NCBI GenBank assembly: GCA_037439845.1
Contig: JBBIVF010000001.1
Coordinates: 1,842 to 65,841 of the forward strand
Origin: Candidatus Woesearchaeota archaeon
Lineage (GTDB): Archaea > Nanobdellota > Nanobdellia > Woesearchaeales > JBBIVF01
Direction of reading: 5' to 3'
Length of the DNA stretch: 64,000 bases
Numbering within the stretch: the first letter of the stretch is position 1; the number at the start of each line of letters is the position of its first letter. Both the position numbers and the translations under genes were made by a program. Positions 29,572-49,946 of the stretch are shown here, one piece after another. Below the pieces are notes generated by a model. The model worked only from the letters and a program-made list of their open reading frames with translations. It had not been told where the DNA came from and did no database searches.

Positions 29572-30096
29572 CTAAAACTTATAATTTTTCTTATTTATTT
29601 TCTTGAGAATAGGACAATCATTATCGTGCGCACCTGGAAGATAGCCGAGACTCATCAAAAATTCATTTACGATTTCAGGGCCTGTGAATCTGAATGTTTT
29701 TTTGAAAATTTTTATCCACTGGGCTTTGGTTTTTGGATGATGCATGTGGAGCCATGCCTTAAATGAGCCGTATTGTTTTTGGAGTTGCTTTATTTTTTTC
29801 GCATTATGTATTATTGCCTCTGTTTTAAGACGATTTCTTATTATTCCTGGATTTTTCATTAATTGCTCTATTTTTTTATCATTGAACCTTGCTACTTTTT
29901 GTATAGAGCTGAATTGTTTGTATATTTCTTTTTTCTTCTTTAAGACAGTATCAAAAGAAAGTCCTGCCTGGCTTATCTCCAATACCAAACGCCTGAAAAT
30001 ATCATCATCATCTTTTGGAGGAAAACCATGTTCTGTGTCGTGATGCTCTTTGTGATGATTATCACAGGCTCTAGCAAAACTACAATAAGATTTCAT
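29572..30096 (-). CDS. tag: DNA-3-methyladenine glycosylase I (Tag)
   Basis: EHGFPPKDDDDIFRRLVLEISQAGLSFDTVL...IIRNRLK...NAKK matches the Tag core. N-terminal C/H zinc ligands. Confidence 0.75.
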   Translation of the reverse strand: MKSYCSFARACDNHHKEHHDTEHGFPPKDDDDIFRRLVLEISQAGLSFDTVLKKKKEIYKQFSSIQKVARFNDKKIEQLMKNPGIIRNRLKTEAIIHNAKKIKQLQKQYGSFKAWLHMHHPKTKAQWIKIFKKTFRFTGPEIVNEFLMSLGYLPGAHDNDCPILKKINKKNYKF

Positions 30097-30218: not shown

Positions 30219-31700
30219 TCATTTTTTGTATTTGTGGTACTTATCTACTTCTTTCTTTAGCCACTCTGGCCAGAATTTTTCCTCAATAGGATAAGAAGCG
30301 TCTAATGCTTGGTAAGAACATTTGCCGATAACATCTTTTATTGCTTCTAAAGAATTGTAGCGCACTTTTAACTCGTCATAGTTTACTTTTCTTGGAAGAG
30401 GTATGTCTTTTGTATTATTAAGCGTATCAATAATCATCTTTGCCACTGCCTCGTTTATTTCCTCTCTTGATTTAGAATAAGGGTTTTTGTTTTTTGAACG
30501 CTCTTTGTACTGCAAGTTCTAAAAGACACTCTTGACCTCTGTGCCATTCTTTAAATGAAGGAAAAAGCATAGGGCCATATGATATCCAAAATTCCAAGCT
30601 TTCTATGCCTGAGTTATACAAAGACCATATAGAGCCTCCTTCACTAACACTGCCCTTGACAATGCTATCATCACCCATAAGAACTCTTTTGCCTTGAACA
30701 ATAGAATCAATTGCTCCGAATTTCAGACCCACCTCGATACTGCGCTGGCGGGAATCCTGTTCTTGAAAAGTCCGGACTGCTTGCGCTTGCTTGATAAGGC
30801 CATATTCAACTTTTTGGTTCAGGGCTTTTGCTATTCCTCTAGTAACGCCTTTTCCTGAATCAGGATTATCTACTATGATATCTATTTCTGGCGCTCCATA
30901 GTAATCCACCAATTTCTTTCCGAGACCTGCCCTTATTTCTGCTATTGACATCTCTCCGAAATTTGAATTTGGATGACCGAAATAAACTGCCTGAAAGGCG
31001 TCTTTCAAGTTTAATGAATTTTCTAAAATGAAATTCTCTATTCCATTATGGTCTGCGATGATCATTTCTGCTCCTAGAAACTCTCTTTCAGCATAACCGC
31101 CTATTCTTCTATGAGAACAAGATTCTGAACTTATTACAAAAACATTGTTTATTTTTCCGAAACAAAAACGGCTCGAATCCTGTTTTATCTTTTATACCTA
31201 TGAGTTTTGTCTCTTTTCCGTCGTATATCAAGGCGAGCAATGCAAAAGTTGCTCTTCCTTTAAGTTTTTTTATAAAGTCGCAACCGACTTCTGGGTTAAT
31301 TTCTCCGTATTTTTTCTATGTATTTATGAAGCAATGCTCCGAGAATTTCTGTCTTAATTCTTTGTTTCAAAATTATAATCTTTTTTAAGCTCTTTTACTA
31401 GGTCATCGTGTTTTACAAGATAACCATCCATTGTAACTGCGATTTCAAATTTAGAATGTTTTTTCGGGTTTATTCTTATTGGTTCTGCATTGATTGGCGC
31501 AGGGTATTTGTTCTTTGTATAGCCCACATTTCCTATTGCTGCTATGGACTCTAGCTTTTGGAATATTCTTATTTTTCTTTCATCGATAACATTACCGATG
31601 AGACCCAGCCCTTTTTCCTACTCAATACCTTTGTTGTTGCCGACTGCAATCCCTGCGCAAGTTTTGCCTCTGTGCTGACACGCGCCTATTGCCAGAAAAA
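30219..31700 (-). pseudogene. purF: Multiply disrupted amidophosphoribosyltransferase (purF) remnant
   Basis: Minus-strand pieces in different frames: MDGVAGVYGKDENLVKKIFLAIGACQHRGKTCAGIAVGNNKGIE, then an in-frame TAG, then KGLGLIGNVIDE...IAAIGNVGYT...IAVTMDGYLVKHDDLVKELKK; a PRTase domain (IDIIVDNPDSG...RVLMGDDSIVKGS) in ORF 30472..31065; the C-terminus in ORF 30219..30515. Catalytic Cys1 is replaced by Asp and the HNGN motif is lost. Confidence 0.5.
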
Positions 31701-31754: not shown

Positions 31755-32501
31755 TTAATCGTTTTCTACTCTAGGCGCAAGAATAAAAGACAATTGTAGT
31801 TTGTCAAGAACCGCATATTCAAGCTTCAATGGATAATTTGAATTGAATTGCAAAGTAATATTATTTGAGAGTTTTGAGGCATTAATCATCTTTTTGAGGT
31901 ATTCTATAGAAAATTTGGCCTTTATTGTCTCTTCTGTTTCTGAGTGGATTTTTATTTCCTCATTTGGCTCAAGCTCTATTTTCACATCAGAAAGATCGCC
32001 TTCTGCTTTGATAATAAATTTATCTGTTTCACCTACCAGAGAGACTGATTCAGCAACAACATCAACATCTTCAATTGCTTCATTGAAAACCATTGACGGA
32101 GCCTTGATTGTTATTGGAAAATTGAGTTCTGGTATCTTCTGCTCTTTCTCATCCATCTCTATTATAGGTATCTTAAATGTTCTTGTTGTATTTGATTTTA
32201 GCCTTATAACAAGCTTTGATGTTCCTTCCATCTCCAAGGTCAGCATATCATTAGGTTTTGCCCTTTTCAGGATTTGCTTGAGGTTTGTCAGGTTGAGCGC
32301 AATCTCTTCCTCATGCTCCAGTTTGAAATCAACAAAACAACTTGAGAAAAGCTTGAAAATCACCATTGCAACATTTGCAGGGTCCATTGCCACTAATTCT
32401 ATGCCGTTCTTGGAAATCTTAAATCTTGCCTCATTGACAAGCTCGGAAATAATTGAAATTGGATCCCTGAGATATTTTGGTTCTGCTAGTGTGAGTTTCA
32501 T
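31755..32501 (-). CDS. pcn: DNA polymerase sliding clamp PCNA
   Basis: 248 aa. MKLTLAEPKYLRDPISIISELVNEARFKISKNGIELVAMDPANVAMVIF is a typical PCNA N-terminus. Confidence 0.85.
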   Translation of the reverse strand: MKLTLAEPKYLRDPISIISELVNEARFKISKNGIELVAMDPANVAMVIFKLFSSCFVDFKLEHEEEIALNLTNLKQILKRAKPNDMLTLEMEGTSKLVIRLKSNTTRTFKIPIIEMDEKEQKIPELNFPITIKAPSMVFNEAIEDVDVVAESVSLVGETDKFIIKAEGDLSDVKIELEPNEEIKIHSETEETIKAKFSIEYLKKMINASKLSNNITLQFNSNYPLKLEYAVLDKLQLSFILAPRVEND

Positions 32502-32572
32502 TCTAAATCGCCCTTTTTTTATAACTTTTTTATAAAATTCTAATTAGGACAGTTCTATTTAAATTTTTGGAT

Positions 32573-33925
32573 TTAATGTTTAATAGGAAGATTGAAAATT
32601 AACCCATTATTAATGATAAAAATATTCTTATTTCTTTTATAACCCATCTGCTCTGCCAATTCAATAAAGTGTTCTGCCTTGTCTATTGTTGAATGAGAGG
32701 GTATCATTATCTTGGGTTTGAGCATTGAGATTATCTCTCTTAAATCCTCTCTTGATGCATGGCCTGAGACATGCATGTCTGTAAAAATCCTTACTCCTTG
32801 AGATTTTAAAAGATTATCTAATTTTTTCCTGTTAAGTATGTTATATTCAACTGGAATTATTTTTGATGAAAAAATCACTGCATCATTAGGTTTGAACTCG
32901 AAGTTAATGTTCTTGTTGGCGAGACCTGACAAGACAGACCCTGGTTCTGCTTGGTGGCCTGTTGTTATCAAGATATATTTCTCCCTGTCCAGATGCACTT
33001 TCTTTAATATTTTTAACATTTCTTTCTTATATCTTATTATCCTTACATGCTCGGGAATATGAATTAAGTTTAATGCGTGTGCCGCGGAAAGATATTTGTG
33101 CATAGACCTTCCAAGAATGAGAATTTTTCTGTTTTTTTTGTTCGCGAGATTAAGAATTGTTTTTATTCTTGCTATGTGAGATGCGAATGTTGTAAATATA
33201 ATTATACCTGCATCTTTCAAGGAAAGATATGCGTCTTCAAGAAGCTCTTCAACAACAGATTCAGAAGGAGTTGTGGATGTGATGTCGGCATAAAGAGAAT
33301 CTGCGATAAAAAGAATGACTTTTCCAGATTTTCCCAGTGCCTTTATTCTCTTTAAGTCAATACTCTGGCCTAAAAGAGGTTTTTGGTCTATTTTGAAATC
33401 ATTTGAATAAACAATTGAACCGTATTTTGTATGAATAGTGCAGAAGATAGTGTGGGGTGTTGAATGAGTTACAGGAATAAATTCTATTGTAATTTTGTCA
33501 GAAAGTTTCATTGATTTTCCTGGCCTTAATTCAATTATTGGTTTTTTTAGCCTTTTGTCCTCATCTTTCAATATTCTTTTAAGAACCTCTTTTGTGAATG
33601 GAGTGCAAATTACAGGTCCTTTTAATTTATTTGCCAGAAATGGTATTGCGCCGATATGGTCAAGATGCGCGTGGGTAGGTATTATCGCAATTATTTTGTC
33701 TTTCCAATTTTTAAGAAGTTCAAGGTCTGGTATGACTCCTGTCTTGGCAAGTTCATAGCTCGAGATCAGTTTTACCTCTTCATCTTCTGTGAGCTCAACA
33801 TATTTCTGCATGTTCAGGCCTAAATCAATTATAATCACCTCATCATCAACTCTTATTGCAGTACAATTGCGGCCTATTTCTCCATAACCGCCAAGAGGAA
33901 GTAGTTGTATTGCCATTTGTATCAA
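32573..33925 (-). CDS. Beta-CASP family metallo-beta-lactamase ribonuclease (aCPSF2 / RNase J-like)
   Basis: MBL motif IPTHAHLDHIGAIPF and N-terminal LGGYGEIGRNCTAIRV. beta-CASP architecture in 450 aa. Confidence 0.7.
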   Translation of the reverse strand: MIQMAIQLLPLGGYGEIGRNCTAIRVDDEVIIIDLGLNMQKYVELTEDEEVKLISSYELAKTGVIPDLELLKNWKDKIIAIIPTHAHLDHIGAIPFLANKLKGPVICTPFTKEVLKRILKDEDKRLKKPIIELRPGKSMKLSDKITIEFIPVTHSTPHTIFCTIHTKYGSIVYSNDFKIDQKPLLGQSIDLKRIKALGKSGKVILFIADSLYADITSTTPSESVVEELLEDAYLSLKDAGIIIFTTFASHIARIKTILNLANKKNRKILILGRSMHKYLSAAHALNLIHIPEHVRIIRYKKEMLKILKKVHLDREKYILITTGHQAEPGSVLSGLANKNINFEFKPNDAVIFSSKIIPVEYNILNRKKLDNLLKSQGVRIFTDMHVSGHASREDLREIISMLKPKIMIPSHSTIDKAEHFIELAEQMGYKRNKNIFIINNGLIFNLPIKH

Positions 33926-33946
33926 GTCCTTTATATTAAATATTAA

Positions 33947-34030
33947 ATGCAGGGGAAGGGATTCGAACCCTCGTAAGCACTAAGCTACTGGATCTTGAGT
34001 CCAGCCCGTTTGGCCACTCCGGCACCCCTG
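33947..34030 (-). tRNA. tRNA-Leu (anticodon CAA) with a long variable arm
   Basis: The reverse complement is GCAGGGGTGCCGGAGTGGCCAAACGGGCTGGACTCAAGATCCAGTAGCTTAGTGCTTACGAGGGTTCGAATCCCTTCCCCTGCA. It has a 7-bp acceptor stem, an anticodon stem CTGGA/TCCAG, the loop CTCAAGA, a GGTTCGAATCC T-loop and a variable arm. CCA is not encoded. Confidence 0.85.
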
Positions 34031-34106
34031 CAAAAAACTCAGACAAAAACTCAAATTAGCAAAGAGGTGGTCAGAGTATTTAAAAAAGTTACTGAGAATA
34101 AATGCT

Positions 34107-34559
34107 TTAAATCTTGAAAGTACTAAGTTTTGTTTCTATTTCTTTCAGGTCATCTTCTAATTTCTTTAGTTCATCTGTATCTCTTATTGGGCCTGCTTTT
34201 ATTATCTTTTTTGGCTCGGATATTTGCTGTGCTTTAGGTTTTTGTTCTTCTGTTTTAGGCACTTGCACTAATCTCGGGGCTTTTTTTGATGGCCTGATAA
34301 CTGTTTGAGGAAATGATTTGTTAAGATTGTCCATCAATATTCTTAGCTCATCAACAATCTTCTTAATCTGCACAACATTTGAATATTTCTCCACTCTCAA
34401 TTTTTTAATTTCTTCATAAAGTTGCAATGTTGTCAGTATTTTCTTTGAGGATTCAAGGATATTTCTCCTAAAATCAATAGGTGATTCTATACCCACATAA
34501 AACAATTCTTTGTCTTGCATTTTTTGAATCTTATTCTGTTTCTGGCTCGAACATTGCAC
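34107..34559 (-). CDS. Coiled-coil protein, member 3 of a tandem paralog triad
   Basis: 150 aa. The region FYVGIESPIDFRRNILESSKKILTTLQLYEEIKKLRVEK aligns with the domain shared by the two upstream genes. Overlaps the preceding gene by 29 nt. Confidence 0.4.
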   Translation of the reverse strand: MQCSSQKQNKIQKMQDKELFYVGIESPIDFRRNILESSKKILTTLQLYEEIKKLRVEKYSNVVQIKKIVDELRILMDNLNKSFPQTVIRPSKKAPRLVQVPKTEEQKPKAQQISEPKKIIKAGPIRDTDELKKLEDDLKEIETKLSTFKI

Positions 34560-34758
34560 GGTCTATCTCTTCAATTCTCTGCTCGACTTCCACGAGGTCT
34601 TGGCGCCATTTGTCAACTAAGGAGTCTTCTTTTCTCTTAAGCTCGTTAACATTGTCAATCAAATTCTTGGCCTTTATTATCTTTGCCTTGATAATATCCA
34701 TTACTTCGACAATCTGTTTATATTCTGAAATTTTAATGAAAACAGGCATTTTGTTCAT
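34531..34758 (-). CDS. Small coiled-coil protein, member 2 of the triad
   Basis: 75 aa. VFIKISEYKQIVEVMDIIKAKIIKAKNLIDNVNELK...IEEIDRAMFEP. Start overlaps the upstream stop (ATGA). Confidence 0.4.
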   Translation of the reverse strand: MNKMPVFIKISEYKQIVEVMDIIKAKIIKAKNLIDNVNELKRKEDSLVDKWRQDLVEVEQRIEEIDRAMFEPETE

Positions 34759-35342
34759 ATTAATTCACCTTTGAATATTGTCCTATCTATCAGCAATAGC
34801 TTTCTTTCTATCTCTTCTAATAATTCATGATAACTGCTGAAAACATTGTCCTGCAACACTTTAAGTTCTGCTAGATTCTTATTGAGTGCATTGCATTCCA
34901 TCAACCTTGACTTGGCATAATCAATATTTTGCAGGACTTGCCCGAAGTGTGATGTTCGTATGAACATGGGTTTTTCTATTCTGAATTTGTTATGAAGGCT
35001 AATTTTTATTTTCTCTTCATCTGTTATCTCCTGCTCTAACATTGATTTTAGTTTAGGTAGTTTATCAGGAACTTCATTATAGGAAAATTGCTTGATAGTA
35101 TTCTGCTTAATCTCTTGTTCTGGAGTTGTCATTTGTTCAGGTAACTTTTGTGATGAAAGTTGTTGTGACTGGCGTACTGATTCAAAAGAAGGGGGCATAT
35201 CCTTATCTTCAACATAATTAGGAACCGGATTAACAGCTATGTCCGATTGTAACTGACCTAAACTCGTATCTGGACCTATATTCGGAGGTTCTAAGTTAGG
35301 TTGTGGTATTTCTGGTTGCTCTTTTTTTTGAAAAATCGGCAT
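34755..35342 (-). CDS. Pro/Gln-rich N-terminus plus coiled-coil domain, member 1 of the triad
   Basis: 195 aa. The C-terminal MFIRTSHFGQVLQNIDYAKSRLMECNALNKNLAELK...IDRTIF is homologous to the 75-aa protein. Confidence 0.4.
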   Translation of the reverse strand: MPIFQKKEQPEIPQPNLEPPNIGPDTSLGQLQSDIAVNPVPNYVEDKDMPPSFESVRQSQQLSSQKLPEQMTTPEQEIKQNTIKQFSYNEVPDKLPKLKSMLEQEITDEEKIKISLHNKFRIEKPMFIRTSHFGQVLQNIDYAKSRLMECNALNKNLAELKVLQDNVFSSYHELLEEIERKLLLIDRTIFKGELI

Positions 35343-35413
35343 TATTCACCCCTAAGGCAAAACTCTTTATTTTTATATTAAAATATTTATAATCATTAAT
35401 AAGAAGTAAAAAC

Positions 35414-37615
35414 TTATTCTTTGTATTCTTTATTGAATATCTCGTAGAGTTCTTTGGCCTTTAATGGGCCTATCTTTGAAACTTTCTCAAGGTGCTCTGG
35501 TTTCGCATTTACTATCCTTGTTATTGTTTTGAACTCTTTCAAAAGAGGTTTTGACAACGCTGTTCCAATTCCTGGAAAACTTGAGACAATGAATTCCTGC
35601 TGTTCTTTGTATGACAAAGGCTTTGCAGAGTGGAGCTGTGGCTCTTTTTTTGTGTTCTCCTGCTCTCTCCGGATTATTGTCAAAAAAAAATTTGCTGTGT
35701 CTTGCCATGTTTTTAGTTGTATGATTGGTATCTGAAAATTTATTGTTATTGCTGATATCATTCCATATATTGAATTGGGATGTACTTTTCTTTGTGTGAA
35801 AATATTCTCTTCTCCTTGAATCACAAGAATTGGTTTCTCGAAATTCTTTTTTAGGTTATATATTTGGGTAAGAAGACGACCATCAATAATAGACTCTACA
35901 AAATCAGGCACTGTCTTGAACTCTACTCCCACTTTATCAGAAAGAATATAATCTCCGATATCTAATGTAGTCAGCTCAATTTTAATGTTGTTTTCTGCCA
36001 GAAATTTTATTATAGGAGATGCTTTTTCTCTTGTATCTATTTTAATAGAATACTCTTCTGAGGGAAGAAATGAATCTAGTTTTGTCTCTTTTTTTGCATC
36101 TTTTTTGTATAGCTTGAATTTGTTTTTAAGCTCTTCGAGAGTGCGGTGCATTCTTTTTTCTTTGTGATGGGCGCTCCATCTATAACTCACATCAAGAGTG
36201 CCTTCTGTGACAAGCACTTTAAGGATGCCTTTTTTGAATCTGGCTGTCCTGCCTCTTCTCTGGATTGTCCTGATAGCAGACGGCACTGGCTCGTAAAAGA
36301 TGACCTCATCAACTTCTGGAATATCCAGGCCTTCTTCTCCAACTGATGTAGAAACAAGCACGCGAAATGCATTTTTCCTGAAATCTTCAAGAATCTGTTT
36401 CTGCTCTTTCTGGGACATTCCTGTGTCTTTCTTTTTCTGTTGGCCCAAAAATATCTTTGAGGATATGCCTGCTGAGCTGAGCTCATCCACAACCTCGACA
36501 GCAGTGTCCCTGAATTGAGTAAATATTATTGCTTTTTGGACTTTTTTAAGGTCATTTTCTATAATCTCTTTAAGTTTTAGAAGTTTGGGGTGCTTGACAT
36601 TTGAATCTATCATATTTTTGGTGAGCCTTATTGCAGAGATGAAATTAGTGTCTTTCATTAGGTTTTGCACTGCCTTGACTTTTGTTTTTGGAGCTTCATC
36701 GAGCAATTTTTCAAAATAATTGTTTAATTGAGAAAGGCCTTGAGAGGAAAGAAGCTCATATGCATGAAGAATTTTGAGAATCTCAGCCAACAAGGATATT
36801 GTTTTCATAAGATTAGGATTGTATTTTTCTTTGCTTATTTCTGTATGGAGATTATTTTGTAATTGAATGATATCTGATTTTTTCAATGAACTGAATGTGA
36901 GATTGCAATATCCTAGCTGATTTGCCTCTGACAATTTCTCTTTTATGGCTGCATCAAGATATTCAGATATTTTTTTGAATGCAGGAGAAAGCTGAACCTT
37001 GACCCATTCTATTTCCAAAGGTTTTATGTATGGTTTTACGTCAGGATCTTTTTCTGTGCGTATTTCAAGCTCTTCAATTAGCAGGTTGTTGCAGACCTCT
37101 TTTATTTTTTCTATATCTGAGCCAGGAGATGCAGTAAGAGCAAGCACTCTCGGTCTAGTGGCTTGAGCATCATATTGCTTTGCAATGAATACATATGAAT
37201 AATCACCTACTGCCTTGTGGGCTTCATCGAATGCAATTAATGAAACATCTTTTAGTGATATTTTCTTTGATATTAAGTCATTTTCTACTCCTTGGGGTGT
37301 TGAAAATATTAGTTGAGATGAATTAAACAGCTCTTTTCTTTTTTCTGAAGGAACTTGGCCGGTCAGTAAAGAAAATTTGGTTTCGTCTATTTCTAGATGC
37401 TTTTTGAATGTCTTCATATGCTGTTCTATTAACGGCCTTGTGGGTGCAAGCACTAAAATTTTTGAATCAGGATATTGCTTAAGTCTGTGGGCTGCCATCA
37501 TCATCAGTATATTTGTTTTTCCTAATCCTGTTGGAAGCACGACAAGTGTATTATTAGAGACACAGGTAGAAAAGATTGTCTGCTGGTAGAGTCTTGGCGT
37601 AAAATCTTTTATCAT
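35414..37615 (-). CDS. hef: Hef helicase-nuclease (superfamily 2 helicase plus ERCC4/XPF nuclease plus HhH2)
   Basis: Walker A PTGLGKT and DEAH-like FDEAH. Helicase C motifs (QRRGRTAR). A C-terminal ERCC4 domain (TIDTREKASP...GDYILSD...GVEFK) and HhH (FPGIGTALSKPLL). Confidence 0.8.
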   Translation of the reverse strand: MIKDFTPRLYQQTIFSTCVSNNTLVVLPTGLGKTNILMMMAAHRLKQYPDSKILVLAPTRPLIEQHMKTFKKHLEIDETKFSLLTGQVPSEKRKELFNSSQLIFSTPQGVENDLISKKISLKDVSLIAFDEAHKAVGDYSYVFIAKQYDAQATRPRVLALTASPGSDIEKIKEVCNNLLIEELEIRTEKDPDVKPYIKPLEIEWVKVQLSPAFKKISEYLDAAIKEKLSEANQLGYCNLTFSSLKKSDIIQLQNNLHTEISKEKYNPNLMKTISLLAEILKILHAYELLSSQGLSQLNNYFEKLLDEAPKTKVKAVQNLMKDTNFISAIRLTKNMIDSNVKHPKLLKLKEIIENDLKKVQKAIIFTQFRDTAVEVVDELSSAGISSKIFLGQQKKKDTGMSQKEQKQILEDFRKNAFRVLVSTSVGEEGLDIPEVDEVIFYEPVPSAIRTIQRRGRTARFKKGILKVLVTEGTLDVSYRWSAHHKEKRMHRTLEELKNKFKLYKKDAKKETKLDSFLPSEEYSIKIDTREKASPIIKFLAENNIKIELTTLDIGDYILSDKVGVEFKTVPDFVESIIDGRLLTQIYNLKKNFEKPILVIQGEENIFTQRKVHPNSIYGMISAITINFQIPIIQLKTWQDTANFFLTIIRREQENTKKEPQLHSAKPLSYKEQQEFIVSSFPGIGTALSKPLLKEFKTITRIVNAKPEHLEKVSKIGPLKAKELYEIFNKEYKE

Positions 37616-37756
37616 TGTCTAAGAAGAGGGAATTTTGTTTAAATATGTTTAGCATAGTTGTCTAGTGGCAAGTGGTTTAAAGAAAGATAATTAGAATTTC
37701 GTTACTTTGAATTATAGAAAAAGTTTATTTAATTTATTAAAAAAAGTATTAAAAAT

Positions 37757-38044
37757 CTAGTCCTCATCTTCATGAGGGGCACTTGGCTCATCAGAGAAGC
37801 TTGGCATTGCGCTTCTGCTTATTATCATAATATCTCCAACTGACTTCACAAGCTGGTGCGGCACAAGCACTCCTTTTGCAGAGCCTAATACTTTGGCTAG
37901 ATAAGAGTTTTTTGTGGCTTTTATTCTCCAGCCAAACACCTTGTTTTTGCCGAGCTGAGCCTCTTCAACATCACCAAAATATTCGCCGCTATCAGTGAAT
38001 ACTCTCATATCATATATTTCAGAAATTCTTTTCATCTTGAGCAT
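37757..38044 (-). CDS. PRC-barrel domain protein
   Basis: 95 aa. MRVFTDSGEYFGDVEEAQL...GVLVPHQLVKSVGDIMIIS. Confidence 0.45.
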   Translation of the reverse strand: MLKMKRISEIYDMRVFTDSGEYFGDVEEAQLGKNKVFGWRIKATKNSYLAKVLGSAKGVLVPHQLVKSVGDIMIISRSAMPSFSDEPSAPHEDED

Positions 38045-38162
38045 AATCTATCCCTCCGATTTATTATGATGATAAAAAACAAGAAAAACTTATATATAAA
38101 CTTATCCTTTTTAAATACAACATCATTAAACCTTTTAAAGCAAAAAAATTAATCTGTGAACA

Positions 38163-38852
38163 ATGATAAAAATCAACAATATAGCAATTATAGGCACTTC
38201 ACATGTTTCAAGGAATTCTGTGAAAGAAATAGAAGCATTTATTGAAAAGAACAAACCTGACATTATCGCGATTGAACTTGATGCTCAGAGGTTGCAGGCA
38301 CTGATAAAGAAAAAAAAGTCAAAACCTTCATTTTCTATGATAAGAGAATTCGGCTTCAAAGGTTTTGTCTTTTTAATATTAGGTTCATTAGCCCAGAAAA
38401 TAATCGGCAAGCGATTGCAGATAATGCCTGGCTCTGATATGTATGCCGCATTTAAACAGGCAAAAAAAAATTCTCTTAAAATCGCTCTTATTGATCAGGA
38501 TATTCGCATAACCTTAAGAAGATTCTCAAAGAATTTCAAGTTCAGGGATTTTTTCTCGATGATAAAGGATTTTTTAAAAGGCATATTTATTCCGAAAAAA
38601 CAGCTGAAAAATCTAGGTTTAGACAAGCTTGCTATTGGCCAAGTTCCTGAGGATGAAGTTGTTGAAGCAATAATCAAACACATGCAAAAACATTATCCTG
38701 GCATTTACAAGAGTTTGATAGATGAACGCAATAAACTAATGGCAATAAATCTTCTTACATTACACCATAATTTTCCTGAAAAATCTATCTTGGCAGTAGT
38801 GGGAAAAGGCCATGAAAAAGGTATTATGGAAATACTCAGCAAAAACCTTTAA
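38163..38852 (+). CDS. TraB/GumN/PrgY family protein
   Basis: N-terminal IIGTSHVSRNSVKEIEAFIEKNKPDIIAIELDAQR matches the TraB-family signature (GTAHVS...VELD). Confidence 0.55.
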   Translation: MIKINNIAIIGTSHVSRNSVKEIEAFIEKNKPDIIAIELDAQRLQALIKKKKSKPSFSMIREFGFKGFVFLILGSLAQKIIGKRLQIMPGSDMYAAFKQAKKNSLKIALIDQDIRITLRRFSKNFKFRDFFSMIKDFLKGIFIPKKQLKNLGLDKLAIGQVPEDEVVEAIIKHMQKHYPGIYKSLIDERNKLMAINLLTLHHNFPEKSILAVVGKGHEKGIMEILSKNL

Positions 38853-38878
38853 ATAGTTCATTCCTTAATATAATATAG

Positions 38879-39607
38879 ATGAGTGTGTTCAGCTATTCAA
38901 TCAGGAAATATTTCACATTTTCAAAAAATGAGATTTGGGGAATTCTTCTCTCTATAATTATTTTGTCCATAATTACAGGTATAGATGATGGTAAAGAGCA
39001 GTTCATCTGGATTCAATGGCTCAATAATTTCATTTCTATTCTGCTTTTAATGAGTTTGATTATGATAGTATTTGTGACGTCAAAGAAACTGCTTGCATTG
39101 AAGCGTGGTTTTTCATGTGAATACAAACCATGGCTTTTGGGTCTTTTTTTCGGTCTTATTGTGGCATTAGTGTCAAAAGGTAAAATATGGTATTTTCTTG
39201 TTCCAGGAGGATTTGCCTTACATCACATAGTCAAGCTTAGAATTGGAAAATACAAGCCACAAGGCTCGTTTCTGGAAATGGCGATGATAGGCCTTATAGG
39301 TCCTTTGTCTGTTCTGACCTTGGCAATTTTATTCAAAATGGCAGGAGCATTCTCAACAACCAACCTTTTCTTTGAGAAGGCTATGATTATCTGTTGTGTG
39401 TTTGCAGTTGCCAATGCATTGCCTATTCCTCCATTGGACGGCTCCCATATGTTCTATGTGAGCAGAAAATCTTACATATTCTTTTTCTTCTTTTTCTTAG
39501 CTACTGCTTTGCTGATGTTCTTTTTCAATATAATAATCAGCATCATTGCGGCAATGATATTAGGAGCGATAATGATGGTGCTTTTCACCATAACAATTGA
39601 AAGATGA
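38879..39607 (+). CDS. Polytopic membrane protein, site-2-protease-like (LDG motif present, HExxH not evident)
   Basis: NALPIPPLDGSHMFY resembles the S2P N..P..LDGG motif. Several TM helices. Confidence 0.3.
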   Translation: MSVFSYSIRKYFTFSKNEIWGILLSIIILSIITGIDDGKEQFIWIQWLNNFISILLLMSLIMIVFVTSKKLLALKRGFSCEYKPWLLGLFFGLIVALVSKGKIWYFLVPGGFALHHIVKLRIGKYKPQGSFLEMAMIGLIGPLSVLTLAILFKMAGAFSTTNLFFEKAMIICCVFAVANALPIPPLDGSHMFYVSRKSYIFFFFFFLATALLMFFFNIIISIIAAMILGAIMMVLFTITIER

Positions 39608-39927
39608 GCTTTGATTTTAACAGGGATTGGGTAGAGTATATTTTCTTGGTTTTGTTTGTGATAGGGTTTTTGCTTCCTTTGATGATAAACAACAAGATAG
39701 TTTCAATTATAGTTATATTCTTGTCAGGCATATTTTCAGGAGCAATCTTACATAGAGGAAAAAAGCATTCGAGGTTTGTTGTTTATTCAATAATTGCAGT
39801 AGGATTTCTCGCGGGTTATGTCATAGGCTCATTCAATCACAGCAGGATTGCAACATTATTGCTGTTTGTCATCGGAAATCTTGTTGGGTTTTATCTTTTA
39901 AAGAAAGAGTATATTAAGTTCTTCTGA
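39604..39927 (+). CDS. Small membrane protein (3 TM)
   Basis: 107 aa, hydrophobic. Start overlaps the upstream stop. Confidence 0.35.
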   Translation: MSFDFNRDWVEYIFLVLFVIGFLLPLMINNKIVSIIVIFLSGIFSGAILHRGKKHSRFVVYSIIAVGFLAGYVIGSFNHSRIATLLLFVIGNLVGFYLLKKEYIKFF

Positions 39928-39958
39928 ATTTTAAGATATATTAAGAAAAAATTTAAAA

Positions 39959-40360
39959 TCATTTACTCTCTTCTACTGTCTCAAACATTGCCAATAATCC
40001 TGGCTTTAAAGCTTCTGGGTCTGTTATTTTATCATGGATGTGAGGTTTTAGGGCCCATTTCTTGTCAAGGGAAGATTCTGGGTTAATGAAAAAAATAGAG
40101 AGATTAGGATATTCTTTTAGACTATTCCAGTTTTTTATCAAGAATTCAACATGCTCTTTTTTGTTGGGAAATAGTATAGTCAAATATTCTTTCTTGTCAT
40201 ATTTCTTTATTTCATCTAAAGTAGGTTTTATTAGAATTTTTAGAATTTTATCAGTGAAATGCACCTCTGTAACAGAATCTTTCTTTATGATATCCTTTAT
40301 CTTCTTCTCAAAGACATCTCTTGCTTTCAGGAATTGTATGTACCATTCTTCTAGTTCCAT
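39959..40360 (-). CDS. Hypothetical protein, downstream partner of 40351..40965
   Basis: 133 aa. Start is 9 nt inside the upstream gene end, so the two are co-translated as a pair. Confidence 0.4.
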   Translation of the reverse strand: MELEEWYIQFLKARDVFEKKIKDIIKKDSVTEVHFTDKILKILIKPTLDEIKKYDKKEYLTILFPNKKEHVEFLIKNWNSLKEYPNLSIFFINPESSLDKKWALKPHIHDKITDPEALKPGLLAMFETVEESK

Positions 40361-40965
40361 ATTAACTCAGCCTTGTTAGGATCAAATACATATGCTTCAT
40401 TTTCATCGAAATATCCGCACCTGAAATTCTCGAGTGGAATATTTGTCCTTTTGGAAAGCATCCTGGCATAAAAATATACCTGAAAGGGTGCATATTTTTC
40501 TTTATATGCTTTTGGTTTATAGTCCCATATCCATATTTTATTGTCTTCTATCCTGAGAACATCAATATGACCTGTGACAGGAAAACTTGAGTTGAAGATG
40601 TGCTTGTATTCCTGCATTTCATTTTCTTCAAGCCATAATGGAACTTCTGTTGCAATTGTTGCATTGTCGTGATTTAGCATGAAGAGTTGTATTGTTGTAT
40701 GTGGTGAATGTGTCTTGTTTTGCATTGCTATTTCTGCCAGTTTTGATATTTCATGGCCTTTGAGATTATAAAGCTCTGCTTTCAGATTAATTTTTTGCTT
40801 GGATATTCTCGGGCCTTTTCTAAAATAATCATCAGGACAATTTTCTAGCACATTCTCGAGAAATATTTTCAGGGTGTTAAAATCTTTTGATATTGAATCC
40901 AATTTAGATTTATGCAATCTATAATGATAGAACCAGCCGTGCTCAAAAGATTTATACAATATCAT
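40351..40965 (-). CDS. Hypothetical protein with a putative PD-(D/E)xK nuclease-like core
   Basis: 204 aa. PVTGHIDVLRIEDNKIWIWDYKPKAYK fits the hhD...(D/E)xK restriction-endonuclease fold pattern. Confidence 0.4.
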   Translation of the reverse strand: MILYKSFEHGWFYHYRLHKSKLDSISKDFNTLKIFLENVLENCPDDYFRKGPRISKQKINLKAELYNLKGHEISKLAEIAMQNKTHSPHTTIQLFMLNHDNATIATEVPLWLEENEMQEYKHIFNSSFPVTGHIDVLRIEDNKIWIWDYKPKAYKEKYAPFQVYFYARMLSKRTNIPLENFRCGYFDENEAYVFDPNKAELIWN

Positions 40966-43425: not shown

Positions 43426-44616
43426 ATGAATATTACAAAAACAGAAAAGCTAAAAGTTTTGGATATAAAAGAAGAAAACTCTAAAACTTATGTGCTTCTT
43501 GAAAGCAAGCTGTTTTATGCTGGCGGAGGCGGCCAACCCCCGGACACAGGTGTCATTGAGACAGAAAACAGGGAAGAAAACAGAGAACATGCTAATATTG
43601 TTAATATAGAAAAAAATGAGAATAGGAGCTGGTTTGAGTTAGACAAAAAAATAGAGTTGAAAAAAGGGGAAGAGGTAATTTTGAAATTAAATGTTGAAAG
43701 AAGAGAGAAATTAATGAGAATGCATAGCGGAGAGCATATTTTCTTTAAAGCATTACAAAAAGTAAAAGAAAATCTTCTTCTTGACAAAATAGACCTTGAC
43801 GAGAATGAAAGCAGTATTTTTGTTTTAGCAGACAAATTAGAATGGGATGATGTGTTGAAAGCAGAGAAATTGGCTAATGAAGTAATCAAGAAAAGAATAA
43901 ATGTGCAAGAGATATTTGTGAAGAAAGATGAGGTGGAAAAGTATCCTGAACTGAGAATAAAGAAGGAGAGAATAAAAGAGAATGAAGTGAGGATAATAAA
44001 GATAAATGATTTTGACCTGAGTGCATGCAAAGGAACGCATGTGAAAAATACTTCAGAAATAGGTAATTTTCTTGTCACAAAATTTAATTGCTTGGGAAAT
44101 AAATATGAGATAAAGTTTAAAGTGAATGTTGATGAAGATCTTTTTCTTTTAGCAGCGCAATCAAGGAAGATTGCTTCATTGGTAAATGCAGATGTGAATG
44201 AAATATTTGACAGGATAAAAGTAATAATGACAGAAAAGGAAGCGCTTAAGGAGAAAGTAAGAAAATTTTCTGAATATGTTGTTGAAAAATATGAAAAAGA
44301 AAAATTGGGTGATATTGAGTTTTATAGTGCTATCTACGACGATGTTGAAAAAAGAAAAATGATAGACAAGGCGAATGAGATAATCAATAATGGAAAAGAA
44401 AAGAAAGTATTGGTATTTATCAACAAGACGAAAGAGAAAAATGAGATTCTCATTTGCTGTACGCAAGATTCAGGATATAAGGCCAATGAGTTGTTAAAAA
44501 TCATCTTTGAATTTGGAGGAAAAGGAGGAGGTAATGAAAAAATTGTTCAAGGAAGCTTTTCTGGAGAGCCTGCTTTTGTGATAAATAAAATAAAAGAGAG
44601 ATTATATGTTGAATAA
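43426..44616 (+). CDS. alaX: Alanyl-tRNA editing protein AlaX (AlaRS editing-domain homolog with a DHHA1-like C-terminus)
   Basis: Zn-binding motifs HSGEHIFF and CKGTH. C-terminal GGKGGG. Confidence 0.7.
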   Translation: MNITKTEKLKVLDIKEENSKTYVLLESKLFYAGGGGQPPDTGVIETENREENREHANIVNIEKNENRSWFELDKKIELKKGEEVILKLNVERREKLMRMHSGEHIFFKALQKVKENLLLDKIDLDENESSIFVLADKLEWDDVLKAEKLANEVIKKRINVQEIFVKKDEVEKYPELRIKKERIKENEVRIIKINDFDLSACKGTHVKNTSEIGNFLVTKFNCLGNKYEIKFKVNVDEDLFLLAAQSRKIASLVNADVNEIFDRIKVIMTEKEALKEKVRKFSEYVVEKYEKEKLGDIEFYSAIYDDVEKRKMIDKANEIINNGKEKKVLVFINKTKEKNEILICCTQDSGYKANELLKIIFEFGGKGGGNEKIVQGSFSGEPAFVINKIKERLYVE

Positions 44617-45804
44617 TTTCTTTGTTTTTTGTAAAAAGTCCTTTTCATATTCTTCTTGATTTGTTATTTTTTCTGCTGAGAGTGATGTGATCAGTTGTTT
44701 GATCAATTCTGGGCCTATTTTGACATCTGCATTCTTGAAAGTGAAATTAGAGCTGAATTCCTTTATCAATGTCTCTTCTACAAGGTCTTGTGATGTTTCT
44801 TTTGTCCTGACCTCCCTGAGTTGCTTGCTTATGAGCTTTGAGGTGTTTCTCATTACATAGAAAGCATTTCTTTTCAAAGCTTCAGAATTTATGAGATTGA
44901 AATTTATGTCAGAAACTTTCACATCAATAGCACCAAAAAGCCTTAGTGTTAATATCTTTTGCGATAGATCTTCAGGAAACTGATTGATGATTTTTTGTTC
45001 TATTTGGGCAGGAGTAAGATTAGTGCAATCAAGAGCAATGGATATTGTTGAGATATTATCTAAGTTTATTCTTTTTATTTTTCCATTATCATATATCACG
45101 AAACTGCCGTGCTTGAGTTTTTCCAATTCTGAGAAATTAACAGGAAAAATAGGGCCTGGATACACGATATTCTTGTAACCTGGAATAGTGATGTCTGTGG
45201 TTATGTGAATGTGGCCTCCTGCGTAATAGTCGAAATTTTTAGGAAGCAAAGAACATGGAATGGAGTTCATCTCTGACATTTCTTCTGGTTTCAGCTCTGA
45301 AAGAGAGGTATGAAAGATGAAAATCTTGAAACCCTCTGCAGATTCAAGAGGTTCTCGGTTGAGTTGCTCATAGTATTCCTTCTCAAGCATATTTCTTTTT
45401 CCTAGTATGCCTGTGATTTTGGCTCCTGTTTTTTTGTCAATTGTGAATTTGAGATTTAATCTTCCATTTTTGTCTTGCTCTCCTTTCAACACATTGACTA
45501 GCATTCCTGTATGCTCTAAAATATCTATGATTGTTTTGCCAGAAGAGCTATAATCATGAGAGCCTGCCACCAGATATACTGGAATATTATTCTCTTTTAA
45601 TCTTTTTAATTGAAGAACTGTCTCTTTTAGGTTGTCTATTCCAGGCATTGCGACATTGAAAAGATCACCTGCGATGATGACAAAATCTACATTTTCTTTC
45701 AAAGAAATGTCTATTGCCTGCTTAAAATTATCTAGAATGATTTTTGATAATTTCGGGTCATTATATGCTCCTATATGGATATCTGCGAGGTGGGTAAATT
45801 TCAT
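44602..45804 (-). CDS. mre11: DNA double-strand-break repair nuclease Mre11
   Basis: Phosphoesterase motifs HLADIHIG, GDLFN, GSHDYS and GGHIH. Start taken at internal Met (MKFTHLADIH); track ORF extends to 45891. Confidence 0.75.
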   Translation of the reverse strand: MKFTHLADIHIGAYNDPKLSKIILDNFKQAIDISLKENVDFVIIAGDLFNVAMPGIDNLKETVLQLKRLKENNIPVYLVAGSHDYSSSGKTIIDILEHTGMLVNVLKGEQDKNGRLNLKFTIDKKTGAKITGILGKRNMLEKEYYEQLNREPLESAEGFKIFIFHTSLSELKPEEMSEMNSIPCSLLPKNFDYYAGGHIHITTDITIPGYKNIVYPGPIFPVNFSELEKLKHGSFVIYDNGKIKRINLDNISTISIALDCTNLTPAQIEQKIINQFPEDLSQKILTLRLFGAIDVKVSDINFNLINSEALKRNAFYVMRNTSKLISKQLREVRTKETSQDLVEETLIKEFSSNFTFKNADVKIGPELIKQLITSLSAEKITNQEEYEKDFLQKTKKLFNI

Positions 45805-45933
45805 ATGCTTTGTTAAAAAAAAGGTGTTATTATTATGTTTTGTTATGGAAATTGTATAAACAAGGTATTTATAACTACTTATTAATGACAATAAAAGGAA
45901 ATATTTAAAAAGAGAAAAAAATTCACTTTTTTT

Positions 45934-46497
45934 ATGGACACTATTTCAAAGACTTTATTGAAGACTTTGAATGATTCTGAAAATGGTCTTCAGAAATTAA
46001 TGCAACATTTCTATCCCAGACAGTCTTCTATTTTTCCAAAAGAAGCAAATTTGGATGAGTTGGTAAAAGCAATGAAAGAGAACAAGATTGTTATTGTGGG
46101 TGAGATGCATTCATCAGAGTATCATGAAAATGAAAAGAAGATTTTAAGTTATCTCAACAATGGACACAAGATATATATTGGCGATGAAATCATAGAAGAT
46201 GCTCAAGACCTGTCTTCTGTTATTGAGAATAAAGAATATTTTTGTTTATGGAAAGAAAATAATGAGAATTGCAATGCAGAAGCCGCAAACAGTATTGCTG
46301 CCTTGGCCACAGAAAGTGATGCCTCTGTTTTTGCTGTTGTTGGAAATGCACATATTCTTTCTGAAAAAAGTATTCAATATTATCTCTTAAAGAAATCCAT
46401 TGTTCCTTTAGTAATAGAACAAAAAATTGAGGAGAAACCCTTAAAAATCATAAAATATTCTGATTATTTCTATGTTGTTAAAGGCAAATTATACTAA
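45934..46497 (+). CDS. Hypothetical protein, possibly ChaN/Tiki/TraB-superfamily-like
   Basis: 187 aa. IVIVGEMHSSEYHE resembles the GE.H...H motif of ChaN-like proteins. Weak. Confidence 0.3.
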   Translation: MDTISKTLLKTLNDSENGLQKLMQHFYPRQSSIFPKEANLDELVKAMKENKIVIVGEMHSSEYHENEKKILSYLNNGHKIYIGDEIIEDAQDLSSVIENKEYFCLWKENNENCNAEAANSIAALATESDASVFAVVGNAHILSEKSIQYYLLKKSIVPLVIEQKIEEKPLKIIKYSDYFYVVKGKLY

Positions 46498-46757
46498 GCA
46501 TAATTCTCATATCTTCTGTAGTGTCCATGGAAAATTTGATAATATTTCATGAGCTCATTTAGCTCATCTGAGCTCAATTCTAATCCTTTTCTTAATTGAT
46601 AGTCGCTGATAATAACCAGTGCATTCTTGAGTGTTTTCAATATCTCTTTCAGTTTTTCCTTATCATGCTCTGCATAAAATTTAAGGCTTATTTTGTTCAG
46701 CTGTGCGTTGATTTCCTTGACTTTTTCCATTATTTTCTTATATTCGCTCATTTGCAC
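46494..46757 (-). CDS. Small helical protein
   Basis: 87 aa. Overlaps the upstream gene end by 4 nt. Confidence 0.3.
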   Translation of the reverse strand: MQMSEYKKIMEKVKEINAQLNKISLKFYAEHDKEKLKEILKTLKNALVIISDYQLRKGLELSSDELNELMKYYQIFHGHYRRYENYA

Positions 46758-46803
46758 ACCTCTTTCTTAAAGCTATTATTATTACAGGTAATATTTATTC
46801 TTT

Positions 46804-47382: not shown

Positions 47383-47401
47383 ACTAAAGAGTTTATTCTA
47401 T

Positions 47402-48060: not shown

Positions 48061-48124
48061 AGTGTATTTTTTATTTATTATTTATTTTTTATTTTTTTAA
48101 AGTTTTTTCTTATTTTCTTGTTTT

Positions 48125-49663: not shown

Positions 49664-49904
49664 TATTTTTTTAATTTTTTTTAATGAATATTTATAATTA
49701 ATTTTTTTCTATATTGATGTTTATTTGTGGTTTATTTTCCATATGAAATTCAGGAGTTTTATGTTGAATATTATCTGAAAAATGTTTAATTTTCTATTAA
49801 TAGGCCTTAAAAATGTATTTTTCCACAGGAAATGAAGGAGGTATATATCTTGGAAAATATTTGTCTTTAAATAAAAGCATTTATAAACTAGTGGATTTTT
49901 AGTA

Positions 49905-49939: not shown

Positions 49940-49946
49940 AGTTAAA

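What the first reader, a model, noticed from the sequence alone, without database searches (positions are those of the whole stretch)
34107..38044. hef operon carries three paralogous coiled-coil genes and a PRC-barrel gene
Hef (a fork-processing helicase-nuclease) is followed on the same strand by three overlapping genes (4-nt and 29-nt overlaps). They encode paralogous domains of about 65 aa with the pattern [VML]F[IY]..[SI]...Q.....[DI]..K......L......L.......IDR..F. A PRC-barrel protein lies just upstream, and a tRNA-Leu and a beta-CASP RNase gene just downstream. The tight coupling to hef suggests an accessory module for fork repair, or an unrelated structural triad that hitch-hikes in the operon. 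The shared domain matches no family I can name.
Basis: seen in the sequence. Interest (0 to 1): 0.5.

Follow-up and report, generated by a model that had tools for sequence, protein, structure and literature searches.

The report
Conserved DPANN coiled-coil gene triad
The three small genes after hef are a real, unannotated three-gene unit of coiled-coil proteins that is conserved in Woesearchaeota-type archaea, but it has its own promoter-like region and sits next to hef only in this lineage, so there is no evidence that it helps Hef.

Summary
Hef, the PRC-barrel protein, tRNA-Leu(CAA), an RNase J-type beta-CASP nuclease and PCNA are all confirmed. Genes A (195 aa) and B (75 aa) are true paralogues (BLASTP E 3e-9; family profiles 99.6%, E 5e-24). 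Gene C (137 aa as annotated) has the same layout, but its similarity to A/B is only weak (P about 1e-4 to 1e-3).

The A/B domain defines a large unannotated family: 1,424 clusters at 50% identity, with no Pfam, NCBIfam or PDB match. Named members are all Woesearchaeota, Nanoarchaeota or Nanobdellota.

The order A-B-C, with gaps mostly of -8 to +23 nt, recurs in about 80 independent loci. RNase J and PCNA usually follow it. Hef does not adjoin it, except in one close relative. In one Nanoarchaeota contig hef lies 6 kb away, after RNase J, PCNA, PRC and TraB, so the window is a permutation of a conserved neighbourhood.

The 71-nt hef-A spacer carries T-runs, a TATA-like box and a Shine-Dalgarno site, and it is about 90% conserved.

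Best reading: a self-contained operon for a hetero-oligomeric coiled-coil scaffold. A would be membrane-tethered, B acidic, and C basic with a Lys-rich linker. The function is unknown, and a fork-repair role is unsupported.

The parts
34755..35342 (-). Gene A (195 aa). It has an N-terminal hydrophobic-basic motif (MPIFQKK; MG[LF]F..KKK in relatives), a Pro/Glu/Gln-rich linker predicted to be disordered, and a C-terminal domain of about 70 aa.
   Evidence: ORF. A-type homologues lie directly upstream of B in about 60 loci.
34758..34982 (-). C-terminal coiled-coil domain of A (residues 121-195), paralogous to B.
   Evidence: BLASTP E 3e-9; hhalign probability 99.6%, E 5e-24.
34531..34758 (-). 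Gene B (75 aa). It is the stand-alone copy of the domain and overlaps the A stop codon by 4 nt (ATGA).
   Evidence: Its 50-sequence family alignment has invariant P5, Y13, K41, E44, D45, W51 and F70-E71-P72. AlphaFold2 with that alignment gives one long helix, residues 10-70, mean pLDDT 89.9.
34107..34520 (-). Gene C (137 aa from ATG 34520; a GTG at 34559 would give 150 aa and a 29-nt overlap with B). It has a helical N-domain ending in ..FPQT, a Lys-rich linker, and a conserved C-terminal helix (DELKKLEDDLKEIETKL).
   Evidence: The annotated form is P0002. C-type genes lie directly after B in 74 of 84 loci. The single-sequence AlphaFold2 model is low-confidence (pLDDT 52) and shows helices at 14-41, 49-69 and 115-134.
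35343..35413 (-). The 71-nt spacer between hef and A. A T-run follows the hef stop, a TATA-like TTTTAATAT starts 41 nt before the ATG, and GGGGTGA starts 10 nt before it. This is the triad's probable own promoter and 5' leader.
   Evidence: Sequence. It is about 90% identical to L110, although the A proteins are only 49% identical. The same layout occurs upstream of A-type genes elsewhere.
35414..37615 (-). hef (733 aa; helicase, ERCC4 nuclease and HhH2 domains). It is a neighbour, not part of the unit.
   Evidence: NCBIfam Hef equivalog E 2.5e-260; Pfam domains.
37757..38044 (-). PRC-barrel gene (95 aa, CdpB-like). It is a neighbour, and it forms a conserved divergent pair with the TraB-family gene at 38163-38852 (+).
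   Evidence: The PRC/TraB pair is conserved in L001-L006, L011, L030, L036, L051, L084 and L112.
33947..34032 (-). tRNA-Leu(CAA), located between the triad and the RNase J gene.
   Evidence: ARAGORN and Rfam at 56.5 bits. A tRNA-Leu occupies the same position in L049, L072 and L077.
32573..33925 (-). RNase J-type beta-CASP nuclease. It is the usual downstream neighbour of the triad.
   Evidence: Pfam. It lies downstream of the triad in 34 loci, which is 32 of the 38 loci with more than 2.5 kb of downstream sequence.
31755..32501 (-). PCNA, which follows RNase J here as it does in relatives.
   Evidence: Pfam; found in 21 loci.

Best explanation
A, B and C form a self-contained, translationally coupled three-gene operon. 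It is specific to Woesearchaeota-type DPANN archaea and is not an appendage of hef.

Shown:
- The unit and its gene order are conserved in about 80 independent loci.
- The unit persists when its flanking genes change.
- It has a conserved promoter-like box of its own.
- A and B share an ancient duplicated helical domain of about 65 residues.

Inferred:
- The three proteins co-assemble through these long amphipathic helices into a hetero-oligomeric coiled coil.
- A tethers the complex to the membrane through its short N-terminal hydrophobic-basic motif and a long acidic Pro/Glu spacer.
- B is the strongly acidic core subunit, and it pairs with the strongly basic N-domain of C.
- C adds a Lys-rich flexible linker, which could bind nucleic acid or acidic lipid, and a terminal heptad helix that can either fold back onto the bundle or link bundles together.
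- The complex is a structural scaffold. Given its conserved neighbourhood (GyrA, ScpB, RNase J, PCNA, CdpB-like PRC barrel, Hef), it probably acts in chromosome or cell-cycle organisation.

hef came to lie directly upstream only through a rearrangement of that neighbourhood in this lineage.
For: Family size and novelty:
- A profile of A-domain plus B finds 1,424 representative clusters at E <= 1e-3, in two architectures: about 75 aa, or 130-330 aa with the domain at the C-terminus.
- All named members are 'hypothetical protein' from Woesearchaeota, Nanoarchaeota or Nanobdellota.

The unit:
- A-B-C with gaps mostly of -8 to +23 nt is seen in L025-L112.
- The triad is retained with an ABC transporter downstream (L027) and with unrelated genes on both sides (L111).

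Independence from hef:
- L112 shows the order triad, RNase J, PCNA, x, PRC (opposite strand), TraB, three genes, Hef.

Own promoter:
-.

Coiled coil:
- AlphaFold2 models B as a single helix, residues 10-70, with pLDDT 89.9.
- C's C-terminal helix matches designed antiparallel coiled-coil peptides.

Heteromer hint:
- Family-wide net charge is -8.4 +/- 2.1 for B and +7.3 +/- 3.1 for the C N-domain.
- The C linker carries +6 (27% Lys) and the A linker carries -8.

Membrane tether hint:
- 46 of 58 A-type proteins start with a hydrophobic pair followed by a K/R cluster.
Against: - No experiment and no multimer model supports co-assembly. Charge complementarity and tight gene coupling are circumstantial.
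- The N-terminal motif of A is short, and it is degenerate in this window (MPIFQKKEQ).
- Membrane binding is inferred only by analogy with SepF-type anchors.
- The conserved neighbourhood may reflect slow genome rearrangement in a narrow clade rather than shared function.
- The homology of C to A/B is unproven.
Confidence: 0.55

Rival explanations
1. The triad is an accessory module of Hef. It would be co-transcribed with hef and act in processing of stalled forks, for example as a clamp, a scaffold or a PCNA bridge.
For: - The genes are on the same strand, 71 nt downstream of hef.
- The same adjacency occurs in one close relative, L110.
- PCNA lies nearby.
- hef lies in the same roughly 15-kb neighbourhood in L112.
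Against: - None of 24 hef loci carries A, B or C within 6 kb.
- None of 84 triad loci carries hef within 5 kb.
- The spacer has T-runs and its own TATA/Shine-Dalgarno layout, and it is conserved independently of the hef end; L110 has 59 extra nt between hef and the conserved block.
- No PIP-box-like motif is evident in the family consensus sequences (seen directly in the sequences).
Confidence: 0.06
2. The triad is a cell-division or chromosome-segregation adaptor. Membrane-anchored A, B and C would link the envelope to the FtsZ/SepF/CdpB ring or to the nucleoid through C's Lys-rich linker. This is a more specific version of the scaffold model.
For: - A has a SepF-like layout: a short N-terminal hydrophobic-basic motif, a flexible linker, then an oligomerising domain.
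- C's linker is 27% Lys with Ala and Pro, which resembles histone H1 tails.
- One C-type member weakly hits the histone H1-like HC2 family.
- The conserved neighbourhood includes ScpB, GyrA, PCNA and a CdpB-like PRC-barrel gene.
- PRC-barrel CdpB proteins act in FtsZ-based archaeal division (bioRxiv 10.1101/2023.03.28.534520 and 10.1101/2023.03.28.534543).
Against: - There is no sequence relation to SepF, DivIVA, ZapA, CdvA or any division family.
- The PRC gene is never inside the unit, and it lies on the opposite strand in relatives.
- All of the linkage evidence is synteny within one clade.
Confidence: 0.2
3. C is not a paralogue of A and B. It would be an unrelated coiled-coil partner, so the 'triad of paralogues' would really be a pair plus one.
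For: - Pairwise comparisons are not significant.
- hhalign probability is only 12-51%.
- A different alignment, of C's C-terminal helix to the second half of B, scores about the same.
- Coiled coils often give spurious profile matches.
Against: - The in-register 61-66-column alignment places FV.I against FYVGI and the central ELK..ED against K.iR.EK.
- None of 121 shuffled or reversed controls reached its score: native 26.0; column shuffles 11.3 +/- 2.9, maximum 25.6; heptad-block shuffles maximum 20.2; reversed 17.0.
- Both domains have the same length and sit beside each other in the same operon.
Confidence: 0.4
4. The triad works with the downstream RNase J, for example as an RNA-degradation scaffold.
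For: RNase J follows the triad in 32 of the 38 loci that have enough downstream sequence.
Against: - A gap of about 250-400 nt separates the two, often with a tRNA-Leu gene in it.
- L027 and L111 keep the triad without RNase J.
- The triad proteins have no RNA-binding domain.
Confidence: 0.05

Closest known systems
SepF (FtsZ membrane anchor of archaea and Gram-positive bacteria)
   Same: Gene A has the same overall layout: a very short N-terminal hydrophobic-basic motif, a flexible linker and a C-terminal self-associating domain. It also lies in a neighbourhood with a CdpB-like PRC-barrel gene.
   Different: No SepF domain is detectable. The C-terminal part is one long helix rather than an alpha/beta domain. 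The resemblance is one of architecture only, recalled from knowledge of the family and, and it was not tested.
DivIVA / GpsB / ZapB-type bacterial coiled-coil scaffolds
   Same: They are small proteins dominated by one long heptad helix, with conserved short terminal motifs, and they act as membrane-proximal organisers.
   Different: There is no sequence relation, and no Pfam DivIVA or ZapB hit among 60 B-type or 50 C-type members. Here three different subunits are encoded together.
CdvA (PRC barrel fused to a coiled coil, ESCRT-based division)
   Same: A PRC barrel and coiled-coil proteins occur in one genomic neighbourhood.
   Different: The PRC barrel is a separate, CdpB-like 95-aa gene. 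It is not adjacent to the triad in relatives and lies on the opposite strand. There is no CdvA similarity.
SNARE-type helical-bundle complexes
   Same: Several paralogous heptad motifs of about 60-65 residues, with conserved polar residues in mid-helix, are encoded as separate subunits. One subunit (C) carries two helices joined by a flexible linker.
   Different: There is no transmembrane anchor and no detectable homology. Bundle formation was not tested.
Known Hef partners (PCNA; replication and repair factors)
   Same: The genes are genomically close to hef and PCNA in this window.
   Different: No conserved linkage exists, and no coiled-coil Hef accessory turned up in the one literature search on Hef gene neighbourhoods that I ran.

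Membership tests
hef operon / Hef accessory module | Conserved adjacency and co-orientation with hef across genomes | tested here: not met
   None of 24 hef loci has A, B or C within 6 kb. None of 84 triad loci has hef within 5 kb. Adjacency is seen only in the close relative L110. In L112 hef lies 6.4 kb away, beyond six or more genes.
hef operon / Hef accessory module | Co-transcription: no terminator or promoter between hef and gene A | tested here: inconclusive
   The spacer has a T-run after the hef stop, a TATA-like box starting 41 nt before the ATG and a Shine-Dalgarno site starting 10 nt before it. This layout is conserved with L110 and resembles other A-type upstream regions. No expression data are available.
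A/B coiled-coil domain family (unnamed, DPANN) | About 65-residue helix flanked by P-x-F-[VI] at the N-terminal end and [IV]D[KR]..F at the C-terminal end | tested here: met
   A and B both carry the flanking motifs. The A-domain and B family profiles match at probability 99.6%. The profile finds 1,424 clusters.
A/B coiled-coil domain family (unnamed, DPANN) | Gene C carries the same domain | tested here: inconclusive
   hhalign P is 1.6e-4 to 1e-3 and beats 121 controls only narrowly. A competing alignment is about as strong. Pairwise comparisons are not significant.
Any curated protein family (Pfam, NCBIfam, PHROGs, PADLOC) or solved structure | Score above the family threshold | tested here: not met
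   No hit reaches any threshold for A, B or C, or for 60 B-type and 50 C-type homologues. Foldseek of the B model against the PDB gives no match.
PRC-barrel / CdpB-like proteins (gene at 37757-38044) | PRC-barrel domain above the Pfam threshold, in a small single-domain protein | tested here: met
   Pfam PF05239 scores 27.0 bits against a cut-off of 21.2. Solved PRC-barrel proteins 8ONW and 8QZO match at E about 1e-10. Assigning it to CdpB1 or CdpB2 specifically was not tested.
Hef (gene at 35414-37615) | Helicase, ERCC4 nuclease and HhH2 domains; NCBIfam equivalog cut-off | tested here: met
   865.9 bits against a cut-off of 610. The Pfam domains DEAD, Helicase_C, ERCC4 and HHH_2 are all found.
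Hetero-oligomeric coiled-coil complex (the proposed mechanism) | Physical co-assembly of A, B and C | not testable with these tools
The indirect support is tight gene coupling and B/C charge complementarity.

The most novel reading that the evidence does not exclude
The triad would be a DPANN-specific, membrane-anchored heteromeric helical-bundle machine with no counterpart in other archaea. One version is a tether that couples the nucleoid (through C's Lys-rich linker) to the membrane (through A's N-terminal motif) during segregation or division in these tiny cells. The other version is a SNARE-like bundle built from A, B, the C N-domain and the C terminal helix.
Probability: 0.15. Interest if true: 0.7.

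Novelty: categorically new. Interest (0 to 1): 0.4.

Why it matters
Woesearchaeota and related DPANN archaea are uncultivated, and much of their gene content is unannotated. This work defines a widespread gene unit: at least 1,424 clusters at 50% identity for the A/B domain, with a fixed A-B-C order in about 80 loci. The unit has a clear domain logic (anchor, acidic core, basic linker subunit) and sits in a conserved replication, segregation and division neighbourhood. That gives a concrete, testable candidate for lineage-specific cell organisation.

It also corrects a tempting mis-annotation. Adjacency to hef in this one genome should not be propagated as 'Hef-associated'. The practical value is modest until a function is shown.

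Tried and rejected
- Word-indexed protein searches with B and C returned only the query itself. The exhaustive profile search was needed to find relatives.
- An exact look-up of B's contig failed.
A single typical B-type protein worked.
- No B-type gene was found in viral contigs, and there were no PHROG or PADLOC hits of note. A viral, defence or mobile origin was therefore dropped.
The single-sequence C model has low confidence (pLDDT 52) and was not used for fold search.
- The B model is a single helix, and Foldseek against the PDB returned nothing.
- tblastn hits of B in the MCM C-terminus (52401-52568) and of C at 46879-47106 are chance-level (E 0.15-0.4).
- The sigma-70 promoter and intrinsic-terminator scan is not informative for an archaeon.
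- A literature search found no description of this family.
- I considered resemblances to DivIVA, ZapA, prefoldin, the V-ATPase stalk and ESCRT-III (from memory). I set them aside because no Pfam model of those families scored.

Full report
**What is there.**
- PRC-barrel gene at 37757-38044: Pfam PRC 27 bits against a cut-off of 21.2; E about 1e-10 to the solved PRC-barrel proteins 8ONW and 8QZO.
- hef at 35414-37615: NCBIfam Hef equivalog 865.9 bits against a cut-off of 610; helicase, ERCC4 and HhH2 domains.
- Gene A at 34755-35342 (195 aa), gene B at 34531-34758 (75 aa) and gene C ending at 34107.
- tRNA-Leu(CAA) at 33947-34032.
- An RNase J-type beta-CASP nuclease at 32573-33925, and PCNA at 31755-32501.

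A and B overlap by 4 nt (ATGA). The 29-nt B/C overlap depends on a GTG start at 34559. The database form of C is the 137-aa protein that starts at ATG 34520 (P0002). That start leaves a 10-nt gap, which is the typical B-C spacing in relatives. G+C content is uniform across the region.

**Is the paralogy real?** The A C-terminus (residues 125-193) and B align without gaps at 30% identity, E 3e-9. The ungapped score is 110, against 25 +/- 4 for shuffles. Profiles built from 58 A-type and 74 B-type homologues match at probability 99.6%, E 5e-24. These two are paralogues from an old duplication, because every locus carries both types.

C is different. Pairwise comparisons are not significant, and C ranks only fifth (E 0.19) in a two-sequence profile search of local ORFs. 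At family-profile level the C N-domain aligns in register with the A/B domain over 61-66 columns. FV.I aligns with FYVGI, and the central ELK..ED aligns with K.iR.EK, at score 23-26 and P 1.6e-4 to 1e-3. None of 60 column shuffles (11.3 +/- 2.9, maximum 25.6), 60 heptad-block shuffles (maximum 20.2) or the reversed profile (17.0) reached the native 26.0. However, a B-only profile against full-length C prefers C's C-terminal helix aligned to the second half of the B domain, at P 7e-4. I therefore treat C as having the same architecture, with homology plausible but unproven.

**A large unannotated family.** A, B and C have no hit in Pfam, NCBIfam, PHROGs or PADLOC that reaches a family threshold, and no PDB relative by sequence. 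Word-indexed searches found only the queries themselves. The exhaustive profile search found 1,424 representative clusters (50% identity) at E <= 1e-3 and 101 at E <= 1e-10. They have two architectures:
- About 75-aa stand-alone proteins (B-type).
- 130-330-aa proteins with the domain at the very C-terminus (A-type).

A second search gave 514 B-type proteins. Those with names are all 'hypothetical protein' from Candidatus Woesearchaeota, Nanoarchaeota or Nanobdellota, and none has a precomputed Pfam domain. Sixty B-type and fifty C-type members scanned one by one gave only scattered coiled-coil noise. No copy was found in viral contigs.

**Gene context.** Contigs carrying B-type genes (L025-L028; 80 metagenome loci L029-L108; L109-L112) show the same three-gene order.
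- An A-type gene lies immediately upstream and a C-type gene immediately downstream, with gaps mostly of -8 to +23 nt (confirmed with HMMs).
- C-type genes follow B in 74 of 84 loci, and most of the remaining contigs are too short to cover the position.
- RNase J follows in 34 loci, or 32 of the 38 with more than 2.5 kb downstream. PCNA follows in 21. A tRNA-Leu sits between C and RNase J in some loci.
- Upstream there is usually a divergent radical-SAM gene and a 430-aa protein with no Pfam match.
- The triad survives when its neighbours change: an ABC transporter lies downstream in L027, and unrelated genes lie on both sides in L111.

**Relation to hef.** Twenty-four hef loci from other genomes (38-53% identical Hef; Woesearchaeota, Nanoarchaeota, Pacearchaeota, Altiarchaeales and others) contain nothing related to A, B or C within 6 kb by tblastn or HMM. 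The gene after hef differs in nearly every one. No hef was found within 5 kb of the triad in 84 loci.

The Nanoarchaeota contig L112 shows the likely older layout. GyrA, ScpB, MJ0538 and an LTD-domain gene lie on the opposite strand. They are followed by A-B-C, RNase J, PCNA, one gene, PRC (opposite strand; E 5e-41 to the window's PRC), TraB, three genes and then Hef. L002 fits the same order (PCNA ... PRC, TraB ... Hef), as do L030, L036, L051, L077, L078 and L084. The window contains the same genes in a permuted order, including the small ORF at 39959-40360.

Only one other locus, the close relative L110, has a Hef C-terminus upstream of A. That Hef fragment is about 85% identical by eye, and its A protein is 49% identical. 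hef-triad adjacency is thus a lineage-specific rearrangement. The PRC-barrel gene is likewise not part of a hef operon. It is separated from hef by 141 nt with T-runs, it forms a conserved divergent pair with TraB, and in relatives it lies on the strand opposite to hef.

**Transcription signals.** The 71-nt hef-A spacer begins with GTTTTTACTTCTT. It has a TATA-like TTTTAATAT starting 41 nt before the ATG and GGGGTGA starting 10 nt before it. In L110 the same block is about 90% identical, while hef ends 59 nt further upstream. The block therefore belongs to the triad and is far more conserved than the A protein. In relatives where the upstream gene is divergent, TATA-like boxes (AAAG-TTTTAATA) cluster 30-60 nt before the A start. 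This holds in 26 of 45 loci, and Shine-Dalgarno-like sites precede the ATG in 30 of 45. This favours an independent promoter, but expression data are lacking.

**Anatomy and likely mechanism.**
- B, modelled with a 50-sequence alignment, is one continuous helix (residues 10-70) at mean pLDDT 89.9, with unstructured conserved ends: MPVFVKI..Y at the N-terminus and LFEPE at the C-terminus. This is a coiled-coil subunit, not a globular fold. Foldseek finds nothing.
- A-type proteins start with a short hydrophobic-basic motif (MG[LF]F..KKK; 46 of 58 proteins). An L[DE][IL]PPPPP box often follows (33 of 58), and then a Pro/Glu-rich linker of 21-248 residues with a net charge of about -8.
- C-type proteins have a basic N-domain (FYVGI.DP..RR.LLES ... 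LPKT.LR). This is followed by a 22-54-residue linker with 27% Lys, and a conserved terminal helix (sELEKLEsELs.IE.KL) that resembles designed antiparallel coiled-coil peptides.
- Family-wide, B is strongly acidic (-8.4 +/- 2.1) and the C N-domain strongly basic (+7.3 +/- 3.1).

From these features I infer, but have not shown, a hetero-oligomeric coiled coil. B would pair with C. A would tether the assembly to the membrane in the manner of SepF-type anchors. C's Lys-rich linker would bind an anionic partner, either DNA/RNA or lipid.

The neighbourhood (GyrA, ScpB, PCNA, Hef, a CdpB-like PRC barrel) hints at a role in chromosome or cell-cycle organisation. PRC-barrel CdpB proteins act with SepF in FtsZ-based division (bioRxiv 10.1101/2023.03.28.534520 and 10.1101/2023.03.28.534543). 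This is association within one clade, and it is weak.

**Verdict.** The 'hef operon / fork-repair accessory' reading is not supported. Its function remains unknown, and the scaffold model is the best-supported guess (overall confidence about 0.55; high for independence from hef, and about 0.4 for the membrane-tethered heteromer). Interest is moderate. This is genuine, widespread dark matter with a testable architecture, but nothing here yet overturns or opens a major question.

Noticed in passing
window 35343-35413 (- strand); L110 332-401: The non-coding block upstream of gene A is about 90% identical between the window and L110, although the A proteins are only 49% identical. This is unusually strong conservation for a promoter and leader, and it may hold a regulatory element beyond the TATA box and Shine-Dalgarno site.
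   Followed up: partly
L025-L108, 30-60 nt upstream of A-type genes: There is a recurrent promoter-like box, AATA[CG]TA...AAAG(T)TTTTAATA, followed by a strong GGAGGTG/GGGGTG Shine-Dalgarno site. This suggests a shared regulatory signal for the triad across Woesearchaeota.
   Followed up: partly
L112 1-16228; window 31755-40360: A neighbourhood of about 15 kb is conserved at roughly 45-60% protein identity: GyrA, ScpB, an LTD protein, the triad, RNase J, PCNA, PRC barrel, TraB, membrane proteins and Hef. The window is a permuted version of it, with the PRC/TraB block inverted and hef brought next to the triad.
   Followed up: partly
window 37757-38044 (-) and 38163-38852 (+): The CdpB-like PRC-barrel gene and a TraB/PrgY/GumN-family gene form a divergent pair. 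The pair is conserved in at least 12 related loci, and the reason for the pairing is unknown.
   Followed up: no
window 39959-40360 (-): This 133-aa ORF has no Pfam match. It is 36% identical (E 4e-27) to an ORF found just after PCNA in L078 and four other loci, so it is another conserved unknown in this neighbourhood.
   Followed up: partly
window 30472-31065 (-): This 197-aa ORF resembles only the phosphoribosyltransferase half of a 475-aa PurF-like protein that lies upstream of the triad in 10 loci (26% identity, E 3e-9). The glutamine-amidotransferase half is missing, so it is a possible truncated gene or remnant.
   Followed up: partly
alignment A4 columns for C residues 114-137; window 34110-34181: The C-terminal helix of C-type proteins (sELEKLEsELs.IE.KL) resembles the second half of the A/B domain (ED.ELE.W...L.EIE.K) about as well as the C N-domain resembles the whole domain. 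C may carry one and a half copies of the motif.
   Followed up: partly
window 43426-53278: The window is dense in replication and repair genes: an Mre11-like phosphoesterase (44602-45891), a HerA-type ATPase (48125-49663), and ORFs that look by eye like a TBP (49947-50495) and an MCM (50571-52592), plus a Tag glycosylase (29572-30096) and a PD-(D/E)XK nuclease (40351-40965). Adjacency to any one repair gene therefore carries little information.
   Followed up: partly
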